Source: Escherichia phage EC6 | Sequence record: JX560968 | Strand: one strand, 5' to 3' | Length of the DNA: 64,000 nt | In this document: positions 17,635 through 58,094 of the stretch, in pieces | How positions within the stretch are numbered: the stretch's first letter is position 1 | Layout of the letters: each line of letters opens with the position of its first letter | The notes under the pieces: model-generated | Database searches by the model: none | Seen by the model: the letters and a program-made list of their open reading frames with translations, nothing else | Told to the model about the DNA's origin: nothing | Translations under genes and position numbers: made by a program

Positions 17635-19235
17635 ATGGACTTAAATGCTGTTAAGCAGAAGCGAGTGGAAGATGTTAGGAAAGTCCTAGCTGGAGAGTTG
17701 GGGCTTTCTGATGAAGTAAAAGAAATTATCAAATCATTCGGTAAAGACCCCTCTAAATTCCTTCCAACTCAAATTCTGACTTTATTAAGATACACCCCAG
17801 ACCAAGTTAGACTTATCTTCAAATTGATGACTGATAAGAACTATGTAGCCCCTCAGCCGGGTTCTCAAGAGGTCTTTTTAAATACTAATGCTGACTTGGT
17901 TCTCTATGGTGGTGCTGCGGGTGCTGGTAAGACTGCTGCATTGTTGATGGACTCTTTAAGATTTATTGAAGACCCTAACTATAATGCTGTGTATTTCCGT
18001 CGAAACACAACACAGTTACAAGGTGGTTTATGGCCTGCTGCAAAGAAACTATTTGGTAAGTTTGGTGGGGTTCCTCACGAGCAGAAGATGACTATCACAT
18101 TCCCTTCTGGGGCAACTATCAAGTTTACCTACCTAGAACTTGAAAAGCACGCTGAAGGTCATCAGGGTATTGAATACTCAGCTATTTACTTTGACGAAGG
18201 TACTCACTTCTCTGCTTCACAGATTTCATACCTACAGACTCGTCTGCGTTCTGGGGCTGAAGGTGACTCATACATGAAGATTTCCATGAACCCAGACAGA
18301 GACCACTTTATTTACGATTGGGTAGAACCATTCTTAGATGAAGAAGGTTACCCAGACCCTGAAAAGTGTGGTCGTATTCGTTGGTATGTAATGAATGATG
18401 GTGTTATGGTTTCTGATTGGGAGAGAGACAAGATTCTTGAAATGTTTCCTCTTGAGATTCCTCAAACATATACATTCATCTCTGGTACGATTGATGATAA
18501 CCCAATCCTTGACTTCTTGGAACCTAAATATCGTGGTAAGTTGGAAAACAACACCCCTGTAAACGTTGCAAGACTTCGTTTCGGTAACTGGAAGGCTCGT
18601 GCAGAAGGTTCAAACTATTGGCAAAGACAATGGTGTGAGATTGTTGATTCACTCCCAGAAGATGTGTTTGATGTCAGAGCATGGGACTTAGCAGCAACTT
18701 TACCATCTGAAATTAACCCTAACCCAGACTGGACAGCGGGTGTTAAGATGGGTAAATCTAAAAAGACGGTTGCTATTATATCATTGATGTAGTAAGATTT
18801 AGAGATAGACCCTCTGGAGTTGAAACACAAATTAATTTGACTGCTGAAAGTGACGGTAAGCGAACTGGTATTTTTATCCCTCAAGACCCAGGCGCTGCTG
18901 GTAAATCCTATGCAACATCCCTCATCAGGAAACTTGCCGAGAAAGGTTATCGCGCAAGAGCTAAACCAACAAATAAAGATAAAGTTACCCGCTTTGCGGG
19001 ATTTTCTGCTGCTTCTGAAGCTGGACTTGTAAAAGTCTTGAGAGGCAGTTGGAACGAAGCTTACTTTCAAGAACTTGAAGGCTTTTGTGGTGATGGTAAA
19101 ACTAAAGATGACCAAGTGGATGCTACCAGTGATGCTTTCAACAGTCTTAACGAAGTTAAATTATTCAAGCCACCATCAATGGGTGCTCACACAGACTTAG
19201 TGAGAGGAAACCCATATGAGGGGCTTAGACGTTGA
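17635..19235 (+). CDS. terminase large subunit; reading frame interrupted at A5 run 18760-18764
   Basis: Walker A YGGAAGAGKT in the N-terminal ATPase domain; nuclease-domain motifs (WDLA..DWTAG, then YYIIDVVRFR and DDQVDA) continue in the -1 frame from ~18762 to 19235; the ATG at 17635 has a GGAGG RBS. Confidence 0.7.
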
Positions 19236-19251: not shown

Positions 19252-20717
19252 ATGGCAGAAATTACAGAAACACAAGAAAGCTTACCACCATTTAGAATGG
19301 GTGAAGTAGGTTCTTTGGGTCTGAAGGTTAAGAATGGTAGAATCTATGAAGAACCTCGTCAGGCACTAAGGTTCCCTGAAAGTATTAAAACTTTCCAATT
19401 AATGATGCGTGACCCTGCTGTAGCAGCATCTGTAAATATTATTAAGATGTTTGTTAGAAAAGTCAACTGGAGATTCGTACCTCCAAAGGGAAAAGAGCAA
19501 GACCCTAAAATGCTTGAAAGAGCAGACTTCTTTAATTCTTTAATGGATGACATGGAGCATGATTGGGCAGATTTTATTAACTCTGTAATGTCATTCTGCA
19601 CTTATGGGTTCTGTGTTAACGAAAAGGTTTATAAGAAACGTCAGGGTAAAAAGGAAAGTACCAGTCAAAATTTGATGATGGTCTAATTGGGTGGGCTAAA
19701 TTACCAATCAGAAACCAATCGACACTTGATAAGTGGTATTTTGACGAAGACTTTAGAAAAGTTACTGGTGTTAGGCAGAATCTGAGAAATGTTTCACATA
19801 TTGCTGGAGCAATTAATCTTGGAGAAAGACCACTAACAAGAAAACTCCCACGAGCTAAATTCATGTTGTTTAAGTATGATGACGAATATGGAAACCCAGA
19901 AGGTCGTTCACCATTACTTAATGCCTATGTACCGTGGAAGTATAAAGTACAGATTGAAGAGTATGAAGCTGTTGGTGTTTCAAGAGACTTGGTAGGTATG
20001 CCAAAGATTGGTTTACCACCAGATTATCTGGATGAAAATGCAGAACCTGAAAAGAAAGCTTTCGTACAATACTGCAAAACTGTTGTTAATGATATGATTG
20101 CAAATGACAGAGCAGGTTTAATCTGGCCTAGATATATCGACCCAGATACTAAAGAGGATATTTTCGAGTTCTCATTAGTCTCTAGACAGGGTGCTAAAGC
20201 ATACGACACAGGTTCTATTATTGACAGATATTCCAAGCAGATTATGATGGCATTTATGTCAGATGTTCTTGCTATGGGTCAGTCAAAATATGGTTCATTC
20301 TCTCTTGCAGATTCTAAGACAAGCTTACTAGCAATGTCAGTAGATATTCTGCTGAAGCAAATTAAGAACGTAATTAACCGTGATTTAGTTGCACAGACTT
20401 ATGCTCTTAATATGTGGGACGATGAAGAACATGTACAAATCACATATGATGATATCGAAACTCCAGACCTTGAAGCAATTGGTTCTTATATTCAGAAAAC
20501 TGTTGCAGTAGGTGCTTTGGAAGTTGACAAAGAGCTATCTAACAAGCTTAGAGAGCATATTGGTCTTCCTCCTGCTGATGAGTCTCAGCCAGTATCTGAA
20601 AAGCTTTCTCCAAACAGTCAAAGCCGTTCAGGAGATGGTTATAAGACCGCTGGAGAAGGTACTGCAAAGACACCTTCAGCAAAAGACCCAAGCACAGCAA
20701 ATAAGGCAAATAAATAA
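19252..20717 (+). CDS. portal protein; reading frame interrupted at A5 run 19648-19652
   Basis: Position directly after terminase; the N-terminal 135 codons (frame 1) and the C-terminal ~355 codons (frame 0) are separated only by a -1 shift at GGTAAAAAGG; the combined ~490 aa is typical of portals. Confidence 0.55.
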
Positions 20718-21217: not shown

Positions 21218-21549
21218 TGGGAACATTAACTATTGATGGTAAGAATAAAATCCTCGCCACGCTAACCCCAACGACTATTATTTTACACAATGTAGACCCA
21301 ACGGCAGACCCTACAGCAAATAAGGTTACTCAGCCAGTGGCTATTTATTTTTCTGAACCGGATAATGGCTTAATTGCCTCAGAAGACACAGTTAACATTA
21401 CTGTTCCAGCTTCTGCAACGGTCTCACACTATAGCTTGTGGGATGCTAACGATAAATGCGTGGCAACTGGTGCTCTTAGCAAACCTCAATTCTTTGCTGA
21501 AGAAGGTATCTATGTTATCTCTTCAGTTTCTGTAGATTTAAACAAATAG
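21217..21549 (+). CDS. hypothetical protein (110 aa)
   Basis: ORF in the head module. Confidence 0.4.
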   Translation: MGTLTIDGKNKILATLTPTTIILHNVDPTADPTANKVTQPVAIYFSEPDNGLIASEDTVNITVPASATVSHYSLWDANDKCVATGALSKPQFFAEEGIYVISSVSVDLNK

Positions 21550-21560
21550 GGTGAGTAAAA

Positions 21561-22907
21561 ATGAGTTCGAATATCTTCAGACTTGCTGATAGATTGTTCA
21601 ACCAACCTTTACTAGCCACTGAATCATTAGCTCACTCAGCAGCAACCTATGTGAATAACAGATTGCTGGGTGATGTCCAAGCAGCAGTAAACTTTGATAA
21701 ACCCAAAGGTGAAGCAAGAAGTCTTTAAAAAGTAAAAGATGACATTGCTATTATTCCTATTATGGGTGGTTTAACTCATCGTATGACATTCATTGATGCA
21801 ATGTGTACAGGTGGTTTAAGCTCTTATGAAGGTTTACGCAGAGGCTTTGACGAAGCTTTAGCAGATGAGTCAATTAAGACTATTGTTCTGCATATTGATT
21901 CTGGTGGTGGTGAAGCTTCAGGTTGCTTTGAATTAGCACGTCACATTATGGCTTCAAGAGGCCAAAAGAAAATTATCGCTTATGTAGATGAGTTCGCTTG
22001 TTCCGCTGCATATGCTCTTGCATCTTCTGCTGAAGAAATTATTGCATCACCAGATGCAGATGTTGGTTCTATTGGTGTAATTATGGTTCATCAGGAATTA
22101 ACTAAGGCATTTGAAAAGAATGGCGTAACAATTAACGTCATCAAAGCTGGTGAGTTTAAAGGTATGGGTTCACCATTCCAAGCACTTTCAGAAGAAAGCA
22201 AAGAAAGACTTCAAAAGAGAATTAATGATACCTACGCAACCTTCACAGGTTTTGTAGCTGAATCTCGTAATCTCTCTGAAGAAGCTGTAAAGAATACTGA
22301 GGCGAATGTTTATTCTGCTCAGGAAGCTCTTGAACTTGGTTTAATTAACTCAATCATGTCTCAAGATGATTTCTTAAATTACTTACAAGGTTCTGAAGAG
22401 GCTCCTGTAAGTTTAAACGTTAACAATTCAGGTGAAGAAATGACTGAACAAGAAAAGCAAGAACTAGAAGCTTTGCGTCTTCAGGTTGCTCAAATGAAAG
22501 CTAAAGAACAGGAAGCTGCTTTGTCAGATTTGACTAATAAGATTTCTGCTTCTGCTGAAGCTTTTGGATTTGATGCAAAAGAAGCTGCAACGACTATTTT
22601 AGGTGCTGGTCTTGATAACCCTCTGAGTGTTCTGTTTATGAATGCTATGGAAGGTGCTAACCAGAAACTTAATGAAACTATCGCATCCCATGCTTCTGCA
22701 ATGGAAGAAAAAGAATCAGAAATTACCAAGCTGAAAGAAACTGCTGGTGCTGTTCTTGAACATTCCAATGCTATGGAAGAAGTGGGTAATGACGGCGAAG
22801 CTGATTTGGTTGAAGAAGAAAAAGAACCAGCTAAGAATGCTTCCGAAGACACCGCTGAACAACGCAAACTGGCTCTCCAGAACGCTCTAAAATCTCTTAT
22901 CAAATAA
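21561..22907 (+). CDS. prohead protease (S49 / lambda gpC-like) with C-terminal scaffold-like region; in-frame TAA at 21726-21728
   Basis: N-terminal FNQPLLATESLA resembles lambda C FNEPLMLEPAYA; the S49-like core (IVLHIDSGGGEASG...) follows; the conserved ARS-x-KV...IAIIP block spans the in-frame TAA; C-terminal E/K/A-rich helical tail. Confidence 0.6.
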
Positions 22908-22918
22908 GGAACACAATA

Positions 22919-23296
22919 ATGGCATATCAAGGTTTTACTAAGTTAGGTAAAAGAGAACCTCTGAATGATATCATTCTTTGGGAACAGATTACCCCAACAG
23001 GCCACTCTCGTAAAGAGTACACACCGGTTGCTTCAACAGAATACCGTGTAGGTGAAGTTCTGAAAGCAGATGGTACTAAGGTTACAGCAGGGCAAGAAGC
23101 TCAGGCTGACTCTGTATGTATCGTTAACTTTTATGCAGACTCACAACTGTCTTATCACGGTCAGTTGAAAGTTGTAGGTATCTACCGCGATGCAGAACTG
23201 AAAGACATGCTGACTCTTGAGTCTGGTGTTGATGCTGCCGCAGTCAAGACAGCTCTGGCTGCTAAAGGTATTGATTTCGTACCAACTGGCCTGTAA
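22919..23296 (+). CDS. head decoration protein (lambda gpD-like position and size)
   Basis: 125-aa ORF between protease and major capsid gene, matching the lambda C-D-E order. Confidence 0.45.
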   Translation: MAYQGFTKLGKREPLNDIILWEQITPTGHSRKEYTPVASTEYRVGEVLKADGTKVTAGQEAQADSVCIVNFYADSQLSYHGQLKVVGIYRDAELKDMLTLESGVDAAAVKTALAAKGIDFVPTGL

Positions 23297-38138: not shown

Positions 38139-39764
38139 ATGGCAGATTACAAATTGAGTCAATTAAACTCAATCGACACAATTCGTTCAGAAGACCTATT
38201 GCACATCAGAGTTAAGAAAAGACCTGAAATGTTGGGTGACGAAGACCGTAGAATGACCTATCAAGACTTCTTAGCTTCTTTCAAACTAGAAAGGTTTGTT
38301 CAGATTGCTGGGAGCACTATGACGGGGGATTTAGGTATTGTCAAGTTACTTTACGGTGGTAAGGTAGTATTTGACCCTACAGATTCTTCTGAGATTACTC
38401 TTGGGGATATTTTAAAGACTTTTAAAATCAACTCAAATGGGCTTAAACTCACTATTGCAGATGCCACAAGGTCAGCAACTGTTTATCATACTTTGAATAA
38501 ACCAAGTCCTAATGAACTTGGCATGAGAACTAATGAAGAGAATGATGCAAGATATTCAAGGCTTGCTGTTACAAATAACTTCAGTATTAGGCAAGCAATT
38601 GTAACTGATGGTGAGCAGTTAACTCTTAAGAAGGCAACCAATACAGGTGCTTCATATATTCAAGGTAGAGATGCTAATAACCAGCAAACTTGGTATGTTG
38701 GACAGGGAAATGCAAACAGTACTAATGTTTATTTGTACAATCATGCTACTGGTGCAATGTTAACCCTTGATGCAACAGCAGCATTTAACAAGTCACTTAG
38801 AATCGTTGGTCAAGTTCAACCTTCGGATTTCTCTAACTTAGATGCTAGATACTTCACTCAGACAGTCGCTAATCAGAGATTTGCACAGTTAGCTGGCAAT
38901 AATACTTTTACAGGTGCTAATACATTTAATAACTATATCAGTGTGAACTCTAATGCTGCTGCTATCGTGCTAAAAAATAAGTCTGCTAATGAGTCTTTGT
39001 ACATCCTAGCAAAAGATGTTGAAAACAATAATCTGTGGTTTATTGGTAAAGGTAGTGCAAATGACAATATCACATTTTATGATTACAAGGGCAATACTTC
39101 TATTGTATTAAACTCGTCTGGTGCTGCATTCAGCAAGACTGTAAAAATCACTGGTCAAGTCCAACCTTCAGATTGGACTAACATTGACTCTAGATATATT
39201 CCGGCAGCTACTTTGAGCAATCTTGCTAAAATTAATGTAGCTAACACATTTACCTCCCAGCAAATTATCCAAGCAAATGGTGAAGCTATTAGGCTAAAAA
39301 ACTCTTCTGAGAACTCACCATTGTATATCAGAGCACAGGACAACACTGGTGCTTATAGGTGGTATGTAGGTAATGGCTCGGGGGGTGATGATGTCACCAT
39401 CCGCAATCACAAGACAGATTGTGAGGTTATCCTATCTAGTGTCGTTGCTATTAATAAAACATTAAGCATCACTGGTCAAGTTAAACCCTCAGATTTCTCT
39501 AACTTAGATGCTAGATATTACACGCAATCTACCGCAAACTCTAGGTATATGCTTGCTTACTCTTCTGGCAGTGGTACAGAGGTGGGTGAGAGTGATGGTA
39601 TTGTTTGGAATGCTAAAACTGGTCTGTATAATGTGTATGATAAATCTGGTGGCGCAACACAGCTAGTCTACCATATGTATCAGGGTGCAAGTTCTACACC
39701 ATCTGCACAGTTTAAGTTTATCTACAGGAATGGTGGTAGTTTTTTACAGGACAGCACGAGATAG
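38139..39764 (+). CDS. tail fibre protein with three internal repeats
   Basis: 541 aa; three copies of ITGQV(Q/K)PSD(F/W)(S/T)N(L/I)D(A/S)RY plus repeated LYI(R/L)A(Q/K)D motifs. Confidence 0.6.
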   Translation: MADYKLSQLNSIDTIRSEDLLHIRVKKRPEMLGDEDRRMTYQDFLASFKLERFVQIAGSTMTGDLGIVKLLYGGKVVFDPTDSSEITLGDILKTFKINSNGLKLTIADATRSATVYHTLNKPSPNELGMRTNEENDARYSRLAVTNNFSIRQAIVTDGEQLTLKKATNTGASYIQGRDANNQQTWYVGQGNANSTNVYLYNHATGAMLTLDATAAFNKSLRIVGQVQPSDFSNLDARYFTQTVANQRFAQLAGNNTFTGANTFNNYISVNSNAAAIVLKNKSANESLYILAKDVENNNLWFIGKGSANDNITFYDYKGNTSIVLNSSGAAFSKTVKITGQVQPSDWTNIDSRYIPAATLSNLAKINVANTFTSQQIIQANGEAIRLKNSSENSPLYIRAQDNTGAYRWYVGNGSGGDDVTIRNHKTDCEVILSSVVAINKTLSITGQVKPSDFSNLDARYYTQSTANSRYMLAYSSGSGTEVGESDGIVWNAKTGLYNVYDKSGGATQLVYHMYQGASSTPSAQFKFIYRNGGSFLQDSTR

Positions 39765-40509
39765 GTATGGTTTTGAGCAGGCATGGGCTAAAATCTATAC
39801 AGACCAAGATAAACCAACCCCTTCAGAGATTGGTGCATACACTAAAGCTGAAACTGACCAGAAGATTGCAGAAGCAATCAGTGACTCTACAGACTTGAAT
39901 AAAATCTATCCAGTAGGTATTGTAACGTGGTTTAACAGTAATGTTAACCCTAATACAGCACTTCCTGGTCTAACTTGGACGTACCTGAATAATGGTGTTG
40001 GTAGAACTATCAGAATTGCAGCAGCAAATGGTTCAGATGTTGCTACAACTGGTGGTTCAGACTCTGTAACGTTATCTGTTGGTAACTTACCTTCACATAC
40101 GCATAGCTTCTCTGCTACCACTTCATCATTTGATTATGGTACTAAGACTTCTAGTACAACTGGTAACCATAACCATAACAGAGGTACTATGGAAATCTCA
40201 GGTGCATTTGGTTGGTTCAGAAGTGACAATAGTTCATTCTACACTGCGAGTGGAGCATTCGTGATGGGGAGCAGTCAGGCTTCGCATGGCTTCACAGGCT
40301 CTAACTTCACTTATGGTGCTCCTGTTGATTTCCACGCGTCAAGAACTTGGACAGGTGCAACCAACACAACAGGTAACCATAGCCATACTGTAGGTATTGG
40401 TGCTCACAGCCACACAGTTAGTGGTAACACAGGTGGTACTGGTTCTGGTTCAGCATTTAGTGTTACTAACCAGTTCTACAAGTTAATGGCTTGGGTAAGA
40501 ACTGCTTAA
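39685..40509 (+). CDS. tail fibre tip-domain protein (His-x-His repeats); may be fused to the upstream fibre via the T6 run at 39740-39745
   Basis: C-terminal ~230 aa is paralogous to the tip of the 36917 product (LPSHTHSF...GNHSHTVGIGAHSHTV...AFSVTNQ); the frame is open back into the upstream gene with no good RBS or ATG of its own. Confidence 0.45.
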   Translation: MQVLHHLHSLSLSTGMVVVFYRTARDRYGFEQAWAKIYTDQDKPTPSEIGAYTKAETDQKIAEAISDSTDLNKIYPVGIVTWFNSNVNPNTALPGLTWTYLNNGVGRTIRIAAANGSDVATTGGSDSVTLSVGNLPSHTHSFSATTSSFDYGTKTSSTTGNHNHNRGTMEISGAFGWFRSDNSSFYTASGAFVMGSSQASHGFTGSNFTYGAPVDFHASRTWTGATNTTGNHSHTVGIGAHSHTVSGNTGGTGSGSAFSVTNQFYKLMAWVRTA

Positions 40510-47674: not shown

Positions 47675-48231
47675 TTAGTGTACTTCAAGCCAGCTTTTAC
47701 CAACCTTACCAGTACCTGTAACAAGCGTTTCTTTCTTAAGACCTAAGTTTTTAGAAGCTTGCCCATAATACCAGTCAGTAACTGCTTTCACTTCTGCCGT
47801 CATACTTTCTGGACATTCCCAACTCGTCTCGTCGTGATAGGAGCACAATAAACGAGCACCTATAGCTGGTTTGCGACCGTTCAACTTCATCAAACCTTCG
47901 TCAATCATACGACGGCAAGCAAGGTTAATTGCTTCATTCTGAACCTGCGCCTCACTACCCATTAGGGTATAGTTTAATAGTTTATGCGGTGATTTACACC
48001 ATAACCACGCCCCAGCGACCTGAATGTACCCACCCTTAGCGATTGCAGCACTCTTGCCGAAAACCTCTTCTAATGCCTTCTTAGTGGCCTTAAAATCGGC
48101 TTCTAAGTTATCAAGTAGTTTCTTAATCTTTGGTAGACGCATATAGTAGGTCTGCTTAGTTAATGCACCTTCCTCTGTAGAAGCTGCCTTAATGGTCTTG
48201 GCAAACTTCTCATCACCTGCACCGAACAATA
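47675..48231 (-). CDS. DNA polymerase (family A), 3-prime exon / C-terminal part
   Basis: Begins LFGAGDEKFAK, the second half of Pol A motif B (compare T7 YGFLYGAGDEK), and contains motif C LLCSYHDE; no independent ATG (the frame enters via TTG). Confidence 0.65.
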
Positions 48232-49036
48232 CATCTGGTCAATACACTCGCAAGGTGTACCAGTTCTCTTATGAACTTCTCCGCATTTCTACGGAGTGTC
48301 GGACTATATCACGCAGTAGTAATACTACCGTTGCACTTGGGAATGGTCATTAGCTTACCACCCTACTCTACTCAGTTCATACATTAAGTATGCTTTTCGA
48401 TAGTCTCTGAACGTTTCTCTGTTAGGAACTCTAAAATACTATTATTTACTAAGGTATGCAATTGCTCTCTTCATGTTCTCTATACTATCTGAGAACAGCC
48501 CAAGACCTCTGTTACAGTTGTGACACAGCATACCTCTTACCTGTCCTGTTTTGTGGTCATGGTCAACAACCAGCTTGGCTTTATGTCTTGAACCATCCAT
48601 GATAAAACCTTCACCACCGCAGATTTGACACTTGTGACCACACTTACTTAGTAACTCTTCGACCTCTTCTCTTTCTAAGCCGTAAGTCCTTAAGTAATAG
48701 TTCTTTACCCTTCCCTTTTCTCCACAAGCAGAACTGCAATACGTCTGTCTTGCTGTTCTAGGTGTAAACTGGTTATTGCAGCTTGGACATATTTTCTCTA
48801 TGACACGACTTGCTGCTCTTCTGTCTACTTCAAGAACGCAGTTTCTACAACGTTTTTGATTGTACTGATATGGCTTAAACTCTTCGCCACATCTGGAACA
48901 AACTCTTTCTTTATAACCTGCCATTGTCTCTCTCCCATTTCTACTATAGGAGTCCTAACAGAGACTTCGCTGCTGATTACCATATCTTTACAGACTTAGG
49001 CTTCCAGCAATTCACAACGTTTTACATGCGCCACTG
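48232..49036 (-). mobile_element. intervening sequence in DNA polymerase gene (group I intron-like) carrying an endonuclease ORF; boundaries approximate
   Basis: Splits Pol A motif B between RKKAKNGIYA and LFGAGDEK; an in-frame stop follows 17 codons into the insert; contains a free-standing Endo VII/HNH ORF; the proposed junction obeys the exon-U / intron-terminal-G rule. Confidence 0.5.
48442..48924 (-). CDS. HNH-superfamily endonuclease (Endonuclease VII-like), intron-encoded homing endonuclease candidate
   Basis: Signature VVDHDHKTGQVRGMLCHNCNRGLG plus two N-terminal Cys4 zinc-ribbon-like motifs; lies wholly inside the polymerase insertion on the same strand. Confidence 0.65.
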   Translation of the reverse strand: MAGYKERVCSRCGEEFKPYQYNQKRCRNCVLEVDRRAASRVIEKICPSCNNQFTPRTARQTYCSSACGEKGRVKNYYLRTYGLEREEVEELLSKCGHKCQICGGEGFIMDGSRHKAKLVVDHDHKTGQVRGMLCHNCNRGLGLFSDSIENMKRAIAYLSK

Positions 49037-51179
49037 ACGCATAGATACCATTCTTAGCCTTCTTACGGCCTTTAGTTATCTCGTGAAGAAGTTCTTCATC
49101 CTGAGTTTCTCTACAACGAATAATGTCATCCTCTTTGTTCAATGCAAAGTAGATGCTGTTAAGCGTATGTGCATCAGTACCTGTATACACCTCATATAAG
49201 TCATTATCCATATCGTAACGACAATACTTGTCAGTCTCTGGATTGAGGTACTTGTCAAGATGTTTGCAGTAGTACCGTCCATCATCCTGTTTAGTGAACT
49301 CGACAAACTCTTTACCTTCAGTTACTGCTTTAGTGAACTCTTTATCACCCATAAAGTTACACAGTAAAACAAGCTGTGCAGAGTTCTGGTCAACTGAAAC
49401 GATGTTAGTCCCTTCCTCACAAATCCACACCTCCCTCATAGGTGCTCCATAGACAGCAGCACCAGATGGTACGTTTACAATACCATACTGCGTCATACGT
49501 CCAGTTGAAGTACCAAACACCATTGCACCAGCACTAAGGCGACCATCTGGACGAATCTGGTTCAACCAACCTTTTTCATCATCCTTTGAGTTCTCAATAG
49601 TTCTGCGTCGGTGCATCAAAGTATAGTACTTAGCAATCTTCTGTCCAAGTTCACCTTCAATCGTATCATAAGATGATTCAGTAAGTTTTGGTGAAGTACG
49701 GATTAAGCAAGGCTCAAGCAAATCTGTGTACTTCTTCACAGACCAGTTATGCTCAATGTACTGTACACCTTCATGTTCAACATAACTCAAACCACACCGC
49801 TCAACCATTTCCTGCCACTTAGGATGCTTTGTAATCATCTTTTTATTGTCTTTGAAACGACAAACTTTGACAGGGTGACCATCTGAGTCTTTCTTGTAGT
49901 TCCAGTCATCTGGAATCCAACCAACTGATTTCAAGTAGTCTTTAACAACTGCTACCTGAGTCATACGAGAAACTTCAAACTCAATTGGTGTATATGGTGC
50001 ATCAATCAAACCTGTGTAGCGACTTGACTCAAGTTCAAAGTGGTTAACAACGTGGCTGTTATAGTACTTCACAGTTTTGACTGTTTTTACTGGCTTCCAG
50101 TCTTTGCATTTCTTACCAATCTTTGCATTCAACTCATTGCAAATTGCACGAGCATCCTTCATTGCTACAAAGCCTTCCTTGTACTCTTCACCAGTTACAG
50201 AGTTGGTTGGTGTATAGCAATTTCTCTTTTCAATGTTAAAAATCTTTGTAGTTGGCTTACCAAATGGCTTGATTTCGTATGTCTGCATCTCACCGTTACG
50301 TACCTGCTGACGATACTTTGTCTTAGGATACTTGGTAATCCTCTTCAGTCCATCTGCATGACCAAATGTTTCAACATACTCATTCCAAGCTTTTGCAAAC
50401 TCTTCTCCAGTGACTTTACCTTTGGTCTTAATAGTTGGAGGAAGATGTGGTTCAACCTCTGAAGCAAGCTCATTAGTCAACTTGTCAAGTTCCTTTACAT
50501 GGAACTCCATAAGCTCTTTATCAGCTTTCCAACCATTGATAGCTTGTTGACTCATCCAGAAAGATGTTTCTTTAGCTCGCATGTAAGTTTCATAAGTGTC
50601 TATACCACACTTCTTAAGCTTGAGATACTCGTTATCAAGTGCCCGTTTAGTTTTGGCGTTAATACGGATATCTTCTACAACACGAGTGAAGATTTCTGCA
50701 TTCCACACACCCCAATGTTCAATCTCTGGTTTACGAACACCAACACGAGCACCCCATGCAGCCAAACCATGAGCACCTTTATAACCCTTTGGAGTTGGTC
50801 TATCCATCCACTGAACACGAGACTGGATAAGAGAATCCTGAAAGAAATTACTCCACGGTTTACACTTTGGATTATCAAAGTTCCATAAATCAGGTGCAAT
50901 GTGATTGAAAACCCACCAGTCATAACCGAGACCGTTGTGGATGCAAAGACGTTTTGCCTTTAACGCAAACTCAATACCTTCACGTAAGCCACCCTTGATG
51001 TACTTGGTATACTTGTGACCGAGGATAGGCTCATCTGTAAAGACCCATACAGGTGGCTCTTCATCATCAGATTTATAGTCTGCGAAAGCCATTACGTGCA
51101 CTTTAGTGAACTCAAGGAGTAAACCATCAGTTTCTGTATCACCAACTAAATGTAAGTTTTTAAAATCTACGTTTTCCAT
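49037..51179 (-). CDS. DNA polymerase (family A), 5-prime exon with 3-prime-5-prime exonuclease domain
   Basis: Exo I motif VGDTETDG; palm motif A-like SVDQNSAQL; ends in the first half of motif B (GRKKAKNGIY); the internal ATG at 51179 has a GAGGGAG RBS and is preferred over the annotated 51209 start. Confidence 0.7.
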
Positions 51180-51236
51180 TTTTACTCCCTCTAAAATCAT
51201 TAACCTCATACATTACTGCAAAAAATTATAAAAAGC

Positions 51237-57046: not shown

Positions 57047-58094
57047 ATGGAGAAGTACACATTAAAAAAACCTTCCCGATTCAGTTACACATGTTTTTAT
57101 CGACTCTGACAGTATTGCCTATAAAGGGGCTTGTGTAGTTGAGAAAGCAAAATATAAATACGTCAATAAACTCACAGCAGAAGAGTCTGAACCATTTGAT
57201 AATGCAAAAGATGCTGCAAGATGGTTAGCAGACCAGAGAATCCTTGTGGAAGAGCTTGGCCTAGCATTTGATGAAGATGAATGGGAAAGACAGACTTGGA
57301 AAGAAGCTAAGAGTGAAAAAGAAGCTATCATGGCTACTCAACAGGTGCTTCAGGAATGGCTTAAGGTTGTTGGTAAAGAAAGAACTTGGGTAGGTTATTT
57401 AACAGAGAAAGGTGTGCATAAACATAAAGACATTAAAGGTCTTGAGCACCAATATCAAGGTAACCGCAAAGATGCTGTCACACCAACACACTTAGTTGCT
57501 TGTCGTGAATATCTTCTGTCAAGACCAGAGTTCAAACTAATTCTTGATGGATTTGAAGCTGACTCTATCGTGATTGCTAAAGCTGAAAAGATGGGTAAAA
57601 AGGCTGCCTTAATGAGTATTGATAAAGACCTTCGACAAGCTGAAGGTACTTACTGTATTGATATGACTTATGAAAAGTCGCCTTTGATTTTCATTGCTGA
57701 TAACAACGTTGGTGAAATTTGGGATTGTCCAATAAAATCGACACCAAAAGCTAAGAAGACAGTTGGGGTAGGTTTTAAATTTCTTTGCTATCAAGCCGTG
57801 GCTGGTGATAATGCGGATAATTATTTCGGTTTAAAGGGTGTTGGTAAGGTTACTATAATGAAAGCCCTTGAAGGTAAAACCACTTACAAAGAGTGTCTTG
57901 ATGCAATTTATGAGCTTTATGCTAAGAAAGAGTCATACACTTATGTCTCGTGGGATGGTCAAACAATTACCAGAACACCTTTAGAGTTAATGCAGCAACA
58001 CTTTTTCTTAGCTTATCAGGAAAGAAACAAGAAAGATGATTTCACTTTTGATAAGTATGGGTGGACACCAAATGTTAACTCAACAAACTCTTAA
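57047..58094 (+). CDS. flap endonuclease / 5-prime-3-prime exonuclease (RNase H-like); reading frame interrupted at A7 run 57064-57070
   Basis: ATG at 57047 (MEKYTLKK) then a +1 frame change into HVFIDSDSIAYKGA (compare T4 RNase H ICLIDFSQIAL) and the later helix-hairpin-helix motif AGDNADNYFGLKGVGKVT. Confidence 0.6.

What the first reader, a model, noticed from the sequence alone, without database searches (positions are those of the whole stretch)
21561..21765. In-frame TAA inside the conserved N-terminal region of the S49 prohead protease
The 55-codon ORF 21561-21728 and the protease ORF are in the same frame, separated only by TAA at 21726-21728. The flanking sequence EARSL-stop-KVKDDIAIIPIMGGL aligns with lambda C RQARSYQVMNGIAVLPVSGTL, so the stop sits at a normally sense position. 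The downstream ATG at 21762 has no RBS. Options: nonsense mutation or substitution error (for example CAA to TAA), stop-codon read-through, or genuine fission of the protease N-terminus.
Basis: partly seen in the sequence, partly recalled or inferred. Interest (0 to 1): 0.5.

Follow-up and report, generated by a model that had tools for sequence, protein, structure and literature searches.

The report
Sequencing-error stop codon in phage protease
The stop codon inside this Felix O1-like phage's head-maturation protease gene is really in the sequence, but it is almost certainly a base-calling error at a T/A homopolymer junction, one of 13 such errors in the window, so the finding is ordinary.

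Summary
An in-frame TAA at 21726-21728 splits a 1347-nt S49 (lambda gpC-like) prohead protease gene (21561-22907) into 55-aa and 381-aa ORFs.

The window is a Felixounavirus (Felix O1-like myovirus). The stop comes from one base: 21727 is A here and T in every relative, so TTA (Leu56) becomes TAA and CTTTTAAAAG becomes CTTTAAAAAG (T4A4 to T3A5). All 40 distinct alleles of the gene that I collected have TTA and one open ORF. None of 159 deposited phages matches the 65-mer exactly, and the 55-aa product is on record nowhere.

Within the gene the window differs from four relatives at 11-18 synonymous codons. Its only private non-synonymous change is the stop.

The window carries 12 more private one-base lesions, all at A/T homopolymers. 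They break terminase, portal, tail fibre, exonuclease and other genes (A6 to A5, or a spurious C after an A run). No viable lytic phage could carry all of these.

The window has no ochre-suppressor tRNA, the downstream ATG has no ribosome-binding site, and no homolog is split at this point.

Verdict: a record-wide homopolymer sequencing or assembly artefact. It is not read-through, recoding or gene fission. The true codon is almost certainly TTA (Leu).

The parts
21561..22907 (+). Complete S49 (lambda gpC / SppA-like) prohead maturation protease gene. It is 1347 nt, giving 448 codons once codon 56 is read as Leu.
   Evidence: Same length and position as the intact CDS in SP116, SPT-1, VpaE1_ev035 and Felix01p109. 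Pfam Peptidase_S49 scores 134 bits against a cutoff of 24.9. Lambda C E = 1e-38. B. subtilis SppA 3RST E = 3e-20.
21726..21728 (+). In-frame TAA at codon 56. Every relative has TTA (Leu) here.
21727..21727 (+). The single differing base: A in the window, T in all relatives. It turns CTTTTAAAAG (T4A4) into CTTTAAAAAG (T3A5).
   Evidence: None of 159 phage records is identical over the 65-mer 21690-21754.
21561..21728 (+). The 55-codon N-terminal fragment ORF. It carries the motif LFNQPLL, which resembles AFNEPLM in lambda C.
   Evidence: This 55-aa product is not on record as a called gene anywhere in the collection.
21762..22907 (+). The 381-codon downstream fragment ORF. It holds the S49 core and the presumed Ser148/Lys200 dyad, and its ATG has no RBS.
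21549..21555 (+). Shine-Dalgarno sequence GGGTGAG serving the real start codon at 21561.
18760..18765 (+). Companion lesion: A6 to A5 frameshift in the terminase large-subunit gene (17635-19235).
19648..19652 (+). Companion lesion: A6 to A5 frameshift in the portal gene (19252-20717).
39739..39746 (+). Companion lesion: a spurious G before a T6 run, which frameshifts the tail-fibre gene (38139-40509).
57065..57073 (+). Companion lesion: AACAAAAC becomes AAAAAAACC, which frameshifts the exonuclease gene.

Best explanation
The TAA is an error in the deposited or assembled sequence, not a property of the phage. The real genome most likely reads CTT TTA AAA (Leu-Leu-Lys) and encodes an ordinary 448-aa S49 prohead protease, translated from the ATG at 21561.

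The error is a miscall at the junction of two homopolymers. The T run was called one base short and the adjacent A run one base long (T4A4 to T3A5). The length does not change, so the error looks like a T-to-A substitution. It belongs to a record-wide pattern of homopolymer miscalls, with 12 other private one-base lesions at A/T runs.

Shown: the base difference, that it is private to the window, the homopolymer context, the companion lesions, and the purifying selection on both sides of the stop. Inferred: that the cause is technical (flow-based or nanopore-type homopolymer error, or poor consensus polishing) rather than a real mutation.
For: (1) One base (21727 A versus T) separates the window from SP116, SPT-1, VpaE1_ev035 and Felix O1 at this codon.

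(2) All 40 distinct nucleotide alleles of the gene, from 57 loci in phage records, IMG/VR, metagenomes and Logan/ENA, have TTA at codon 56. In the 38 alleles held in full, the ORF stays open to codon 445-449.

(3) None of 159 phage records is identical over the 65-mer, and the 55-aa product is not on record anywhere.

(4) In the protease gene the window differs from four relatives at 11-18 synonymous codons, and its only private non-synonymous change is the stop. The encoded protein is 100% identical over residues 1-289 to that of many relatives once codon 56 is read as Leu.

(5) Twelve more private lesions all lie at A/T runs: near 496, 5408, 5966, 9936, 18765 (terminase), 19652 (portal), 39740 (tail fibre), 52114, 52634, 55696, 57072 (exonuclease) and 58815. 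For 11 of them, Felix O1 and VpaE1_ev035 agree against the window wherever they could be aligned (both at 8 sites, one of the two at the other 3). The tail-fibre lesion was checked only against PHB11. Only 7.4% of window positions lie in or next to an A/T run of 4 or more, so 12 of 12 (11 of these lesions plus the protease site; the tail-fibre lesion, also at a T6 run, was found afterwards) has a chance probability of about 3e-14.

(6) Six of the lesions are a C inserted after an A run (or G before a T run on the other strand). Replication slippage does not produce that change.

(7) The literature says flow-based platforms under-call and over-call homopolymers, and that apparent mismatches are mostly an insertion paired with a deletion (PMC3711422). 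It also describes single-base insertions associated with homopolymers (PMC3764156).

(8) Terminase, portal and prohead protease are essential in tailed phages (established knowledge), so a propagating lytic phage cannot have all three broken.
Against: I could not identify the source record, its sequencing platform or its reads. Strain-specific protein look-ups found nothing, so the error was never seen directly.

Real mutations also favour homopolymers.

The protease lesion is a substitution, whereas 11 of its 12 companions are pure indels and the twelfth (57072) combines a substitution with an insertion. Its link to them rests on the shared homopolymer context.

The carry-forward errors described in PMC3764156 insert the same base as the preceding run, near it but not adjacent. 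The C-after-A insertions seen here do not match that textbook form, so I cannot attribute the errors to a particular platform.
Confidence: 0.86

Rival explanations
1. A real nonsense mutation (TTA to TAA) is present in the sequenced DNA. It could be a defective genome or sub-population, a laboratory ochre mutant, or a decaying copy, and the protease is truly truncated and non-functional.
For: The base is in the sequence as given. TTA to TAA is a single transversion. Spontaneous mutations do occur at homopolymer junctions. I could not examine reads to exclude it.
Against: No other sequence carries it: 0 of 40 distinct alleles and 0 of 159 records over the 65-mer.

The gene shows no other sign of decay, with 11-18 synonymous differences and no private missense change.

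It would have to coexist with 12 frameshifts in other genes, including terminase and portal. That is incompatible with a phage that replicates.

Six of those frameshifts are C-after-A-run insertions, which are not slippage products.
Confidence: 0.1
2. The stop is real and functional. Either it is read through (by a suppressor tRNA or by programmed read-through) to give full-length protease at a regulated low level, or the gene is truly split into a 55-aa N-terminal peptide and a separately initiated 381-aa protease.
For: The two ORFs are in the same frame. The phage carries 25 tRNAs of its own. The presumed catalytic Ser148 and Lys200 both lie downstream of the stop, so a truncated enzyme is conceivable.
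Against: Recoding signals are conserved, and this stop is absent from every relative.

None of the 25 tRNAs has anticodon UUA to read UAA. The phage instead carries tRNA-Leu(UAA), which reads the relatives' TTA codon.

UAA is the most efficiently terminated stop codon in enterobacteria (established knowledge).

The ATG at 21762 has no RBS. A product starting there would lack residues 57-67, which include the conserved IAIIPI strand aligned with IAVLPV of lambda C.

All 27 close IMG/VR homologs, and every distant one whose contig reaches the gene's 5' end, have one continuous ORF across this point.
Confidence: 0.02

Closest known systems
Bacteriophage lambda gpC (S49 prohead protease, NP_040584)
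   Same: 33% identity over 254 aa, E = 1e-38. The aligned block starts at residue 46 and spans the stop. The CSAA serine motif aligns with CSAG in lambda, and Lys200 aligns with Lys218. The N-terminal motifs are similar (LFNQPLL versus AFNEPLM). Both genes lie between the portal and major capsid genes.
   Different: The Felix O1-type protein has a different, acidic, coiled-coil-like C-terminal third. Lambda has an annotated nested nu3 gene. Here a nested start is only suspected (ATG at 22440 preceded by AGGTGA).
Head maturation protease of Felix O1 and other Felixounavirus phages (Felix01p109, NP_944888; SP116 YP_009146301)
   Same: About 99% nucleotide identity and the same 1347-nt length, position and neighbours. 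The protein is identical to that of many relatives once codon 56 is read as Leu.
   Different: Only the window has TAA at codon 56. All 40 distinct alleles in relatives have TTA.
Bacterial signal peptide peptidase SppA (B. subtilis, PDB 3RST and 4KWB; E. coli protease IV, 3BEZ)
   Same: Same Peptidase_S49 fold family. E = 3e-20 over residues 89-275, with the serine motif aligned.
   Different: SppA is a membrane-anchored cellular enzyme. The phage protein has no such anchor and carries a scaffold-like C-terminal extension.
Homopolymer miscalls of flow-based (454, Ion Torrent) or nanopore sequencing
   Same: All 13 lesions lie at A/T runs: under-calls (A6 to A5), one over-call (T6 to T7), insertions flanking runs, and one adjacent under-call plus over-call that looks like a mismatch. 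The literature describes exactly these classes (PMC3711422, PMC3764156).
   Different: The platform is unknown. The C-after-A-run insertions are not the textbook carry-forward form, which inserts the same base near the run but not adjacent to it.

Membership tests
Peptidase S49 prohead protease (lambda gpC / SppA type) | Significant match to the Peptidase_S49 profile | tested here: met
   PF01343 scores 134 bits against a gathering cutoff of 24.9, E = 5.5e-39, residues 134-275. PDB SppA 3RST E = 3e-20.
Peptidase S49 prohead protease (lambda gpC / SppA type) | Conserved Ser/Lys catalytic dyad | tested here: met
   Ser148 (FACSAA) aligns with lambda C Ser166 (NCSAG) and with the SppA AASGG serine. 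Lys200 aligns with lambda Lys218, 52 residues after the Ser. That these residues are the catalytic ones rests on the published literature as I recall it, not on a test here.
Peptidase S49 prohead protease (lambda gpC / SppA type) | Location in the head-morphogenesis module, between portal and major capsid genes | tested here: met
   The order is terminase, portal, two small ORFs, protease, a 125-aa ORF, major capsid.
Peptidase S49 prohead protease (lambda gpC / SppA type) | One uninterrupted ORF that includes the N-terminal region of about 55-60 aa | tested here: not met
   The window has TAA at codon 56. All 40 distinct alleles in relatives are uninterrupted there. The failure is attributed to a sequence error, not to the biology.
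Programmed stop-codon read-through or recoding | The stop codon is conserved at the site in related genomes | tested here: not met
   0 of 40 distinct alleles and 0 of 159 records over the 65-mer.
Programmed stop-codon read-through or recoding | A cognate suppressor tRNA or a known read-through-promoting context | tested here: not met
   Of the 25 tRNAs, none has anticodon UUA. The stop is UAA followed by A. Downstream RNA structure was not examined.
Naturally split (fissioned) gene | Homologs split at the same point | tested here: not met
   All 27 close IMG/VR loci have one ORF of about 445-449 aa. Four more relatives have a called 448-aa gene. Ten of 11 distant homologs have a continuous N-terminal extension, and the eleventh is cut by the end of its contig.
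Naturally split (fissioned) gene | The downstream fragment has its own RBS and start codon | tested here: not met
   Upstream of the ATG at 21762 the sequence is GCTATTATTCCTATT, with no purine-rich SD.
Homopolymer-associated sequencing or assembly error | The lesion lies at a homopolymer and is private to the record | tested here: met
   T4A4 to T3A5, private to the window.
Homopolymer-associated sequencing or assembly error | Many similar lesions elsewhere in the same record, breaking essential genes | tested here: met
   12 further private one-base lesions at A/T runs, including terminase, portal, tail fibre and exonuclease. Chance probability of 12 of 12 lesions falling at runs is about 3e-14.
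Homopolymer-associated sequencing or assembly error | Raw reads or re-sequencing show the sense codon | not testable with these tools
   The source record and its reads could not be identified. Exact-protein look-ups for strain-specific proteins found nothing.

The most novel reading that the evidence does not exclude
The TAA is truly present in a replicating phage, and the protease is made either by low-level ochre read-through or as a truncated enzyme re-initiated at Met68. That would be a naturally attenuated or split S49 prohead protease.
Probability: 0.02. Interest if true: 0.45.

Novelty: not a real feature. Interest (0 to 1): 0.05.

Why it matters
It matters mainly for quality control. 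This genome record has a systematic homopolymer error problem, with about one lesion per 5 kb affecting at least 12 genes. Gene calls from it are fragmented: the protease, terminase, portal, tail-fibre and exonuclease genes are all split. Any apparent pseudogene, frameshift or recoding event in this window that sits at an A/T run should be discounted. For annotation, codon 56 should be read as Leu and the protease called as one 448-aa product. There is no new biology here.

Tried and rejected
(1) I tried to find the window's own record or an independent assembly of the same strain. The nearest phage records are only about 94-95% identical over 25-kb stretches. Exact-protein look-ups of the tail-fibre ORF, the gp37-like protein and the tape-measure protein found nothing.

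(2) The exact 381-aa product does occur on a Logan contig from run ERR2737663. That contig starts 33 nt downstream of the stop and differs from the window at 14 synonymous sites, so it is another strain whose contig happens to begin inside the gene. It is not evidence for a truncated gene.

(3) The exact sheath protein led to four relatives of about 97% identity, all with intact genes and T at 21727.

(4) Suppressor-tRNA idea: rejected.

(5) Internal re-initiation: there is no RBS. The nearest ATG after the stop (21739) is out of frame and by my reading opens only about 11 codons (reading).

(6) I considered whether Felix O1 itself splits the gene, because locus-tag numbers p109 and p111 skip p110. 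It does not: Felix01p109 is a single 1347-nt CDS.

(7) Attribution to a specific platform (454 or Ion Torrent flow order T-A-C-G, in which the C flow follows the A flow) remains a plausible inference from memory that I could not test.

Full report
**What is there.** The window is a Felix O1-like myovirus (genus Felixounavirus). A 1.8-kb query around the finding matches 256 phage records, and 254 of them cover at least 80% of it, mostly at 95-99% identity. Over 25-kb stretches the nearest records are about 94-95% identical, so this is a distinct strain that is not itself in the collection.

An ORF starts at ATG 21561, preceded by GGGTGAG, and ends at TAA 21726-21728 after 55 codons. The same frame continues open, and the next in-frame ATG at 21762 opens a 381-codon ORF that ends at 22907. 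Read straight through, 21561-22907 is 1347 nt. That is exactly the length and position of the single head-maturation protease CDS in SP116, SPT-1, VpaE1_ev035 and Felix O1 (Felix01p109).

**What the gene is.** With codon 56 read as a sense codon, the protein hits Pfam Peptidase_S49 at 134 bits against a cutoff of 24.9. It aligns to lambda gpC with E = 1e-38, 33% identity over 254 aa, and to B. subtilis SppA (PDB 3RST) with E = 3e-20.

The lambda alignment starts at residue 46 (DKPKGEARSLLKV against DGPR-QARSY-QV). Ser148 (CSAA) aligns with lambda Ser166, and Lys200 aligns with lambda Lys218. Both are downstream of the stop. That these are the catalytic dyad rests on my knowledge of the S49 literature, not on a test here. 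The N-terminal fragment carries LFNQPLL, which resembles AFNEPLM near the N-terminus of lambda C.

**What relatives have at the site.** A base-by-base comparison shows a single difference at the codon: window 21727 is A and the relatives have T. This is TTA (Leu) to TAA, with CTTTTAAAAG in the relatives and CTTTAAAAAG in the window, that is T4A4 to T3A5.

I collected the gene from several sources:
- phage records;
- IMG/VR, by a DNA pattern with NNN at the codon and by a protein-seeded scan;
- metagenome contigs;
- four contigs that share the window's exact sheath protein.

Together these give 57 loci and 40 distinct nucleotide alleles. All 40 have TTA at codon 56, and in the 38 held in full the first stop is at codon 446-450.

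A 65-base query centred on the site finds 159 phage records, none of them identical. The 55-aa product is not on record as a gene product anywhere in a collection of 153 billion gene positions. Ten of eleven distant homologs (28-32% identity) have one continuous ORF with an N-terminal extension, and the eleventh is cut by the end of its contig. The stop is therefore private to this window.

**No sign of decay in the gene.** Against SP116, SPT-1, VpaE1_ev035 and Felix O1 the window's protease gene differs at 11, 15, 16 and 18 synonymous codons. Its only private non-synonymous difference is the stop itself. The M408V difference seen against VpaE1_ev035 appears only in that comparison, so it belongs to that relative. 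Both sides of the stop have been under strong purifying selection until effectively the present.

**The decisive context.** The ORF list showed terminase and portal also in pieces. I mapped every annotated CDS of VpaE1_ev035 onto the window, re-examined each lesion against Felix O1 as a second reference, and checked the tail fibre against PHB11. Besides the protease stop there are 12 private one-base lesions:

| Window position | Change | Gene affected |
|---|---|---|
| ~496 | C added after A6 | 176-aa gene |
| ~5408 | T6 to T7 | 193-aa gene |
| ~5966 | C added after A5 | 114-aa gene |
| ~9936 | A6 to A5 | 123-aa gene |
| ~18765 | A6 to A5 | terminase large subunit |
| ~19652 | A6 to A5 | portal |
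| ~39740 | G added before T6 | tail fibre |
| ~52114 | G added before T6 | 270-aa gene |
| ~52634 | A5 to A4 | same 270-aa gene |
| ~55696 | A6 to A5 | 93-aa gene |
| ~57072 | AACAAAAC to AAAAAAACC | exonuclease |
| ~58815 | C added after A6 | 165-aa gene |

For the 11 lesions compared with Felix O1 and VpaE1_ev035, the two references differ from each other at nearby sites yet agree against the window wherever they could be aligned (both at 8 sites, one of the two at 3). The tail-fibre lesion was compared only with PHB11. Four more relatives confirm the terminase and portal sites and add an intergenic T6 to T5 change at about 28212.

Only 7.4% of window positions lie in or next to an A/T run of 4 or more. 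The chance that 12 of 12 lesions (11 of those tabulated plus the protease site) fall there is about 3e-14. The tail-fibre lesion, found afterwards, also sits at a T6 run.

**Interpretation.** A lytic myovirus cannot propagate with terminase, portal, prohead protease and tail fibre all broken. That these genes are essential is established knowledge of tailed-phage assembly, and the role of lambda C with the portal protein B and the scaffold Nu3 in initiating head assembly is summarised in PMC3224144. The genes show no other decay.

Six lesions are a C inserted after an A run (or its reverse complement), and replication slippage does not make that change. The pattern of under-calls, over-calls and run-flanking insertions is characteristic of homopolymer-sensitive sequencing. 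PMC3711422 describes over-calls and under-calls, and states that apparent mismatches are predominantly an insertion paired with a deletion. PMC3764156 describes single-base insertions associated with homopolymers.

T4A4 to T3A5 is exactly an under-call of the T run paired with an over-call of the adjacent A run. It is length-neutral, so it looks like a substitution that creates TAA. I conclude, with confidence of about 0.86, that the stop is a sequencing or assembly artefact and the real codon is TTA. I infer a technical origin but could not verify it, because the source record, its platform and its reads could not be traced.

**Rivals.**
- A real nonsense mutation in the sequenced DNA (about 0.10) cannot be excluded without reads. 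It would have to coexist with a dozen frameshifts and would describe a dead genome.
- Functional read-through or genuine fission (about 0.02) is contradicted on several counts. The stop is not conserved. There is no ochre-suppressor tRNA among the 25 tRNAs, and the phage instead carries tRNA-Leu(UAA), which reads TTA. There is no RBS before 21762. A product starting at Met68 would lack the conserved IAIIPI strand.

**Comparison with the known, and novelty.** The gene is an ordinary member of the Felixounavirus head-maturation protease family (S49, lambda gpC-like). The feature reported is not a real biological feature. Its only value is as a warning that this record has about one homopolymer error per 5 kb, so other pseudogenes, frameshifts or recoding candidates at A/T runs in this window should be treated the same way. 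Interest 0.05.

**Contrast case noticed in passing.** The DNA polymerase A gene is in two pieces (48996-51209 and 47675-48229, minus strand), with an Endonuclease_7 ORF between them. Several relatives are annotated with two polymerase CDSs. That looks like a genuine, shared split caused by a mobile endonuclease, unlike the private protease stop.

Noticed in passing
window ~496, 5408, 5966, 9936, 18765, 19652, 39740, 52114, 52634, 55696, 57072, 58815 (plus intergenic ~28212): Twelve further private one-base lesions, all at A/T homopolymers, that frameshift at least 11 genes, including terminase large subunit, portal, tail fibre and exonuclease. Six are a C inserted after an A run (or G before a T run). 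Any recoding or pseudogene call at these sites is probably the same artefact.
   Followed up: yes
window 47675-51209, minus strand: The DNA polymerase A gene is in two ORFs: 737 aa at 48996-51209 and 184 aa at 47675-48229, matching consecutive parts of the DNA_pol_A profile. A 160-aa Endonuclease_7-family ORF (48442-48924, E = 6e-20) lies between them. Several relatives are annotated 'DNA polymerase (x2)', while Felix O1 and VpaE1_ev035 have one ORF. This is probably a genuine split caused by a mobile endonuclease.
   Followed up: partly
window 22440-22907, + strand: An in-frame ATG at codon 294 of the protease is preceded by AGGTGA. The acidic, coiled-coil-like C-terminal 155 aa might also be made separately as a scaffold, as nu3 is nested in lambda C. 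This was not tested.
   Followed up: no
phage record OQ031072.1 (Shigella phage SFPB), 86781-87618: This relative aligns 838 nt to 839 nt of the query and has two 'hypothetical protein' CDSs under the protease match. It is probably another deposited record in which this gene is broken by a one-base indel.
   Followed up: no
window 22919-23296, + strand: The 125-aa gene just after the protease is named 'tail protease' in RefSeq records of relatives, but it has no Pfam match. It sits where lambda has the head-decoration gene D, so the name looks doubtful.
   Followed up: no
locus L067 (Logan ERR2737663_14838, 1279 nt): A short contig encodes exactly the window's 381-aa downstream ORF because the contig begins 2 nt before that ATG. 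It differs from the window at 14 synonymous sites. An exact-product look-up can therefore give a misleading match to a truncated ORF.
   Followed up: yes
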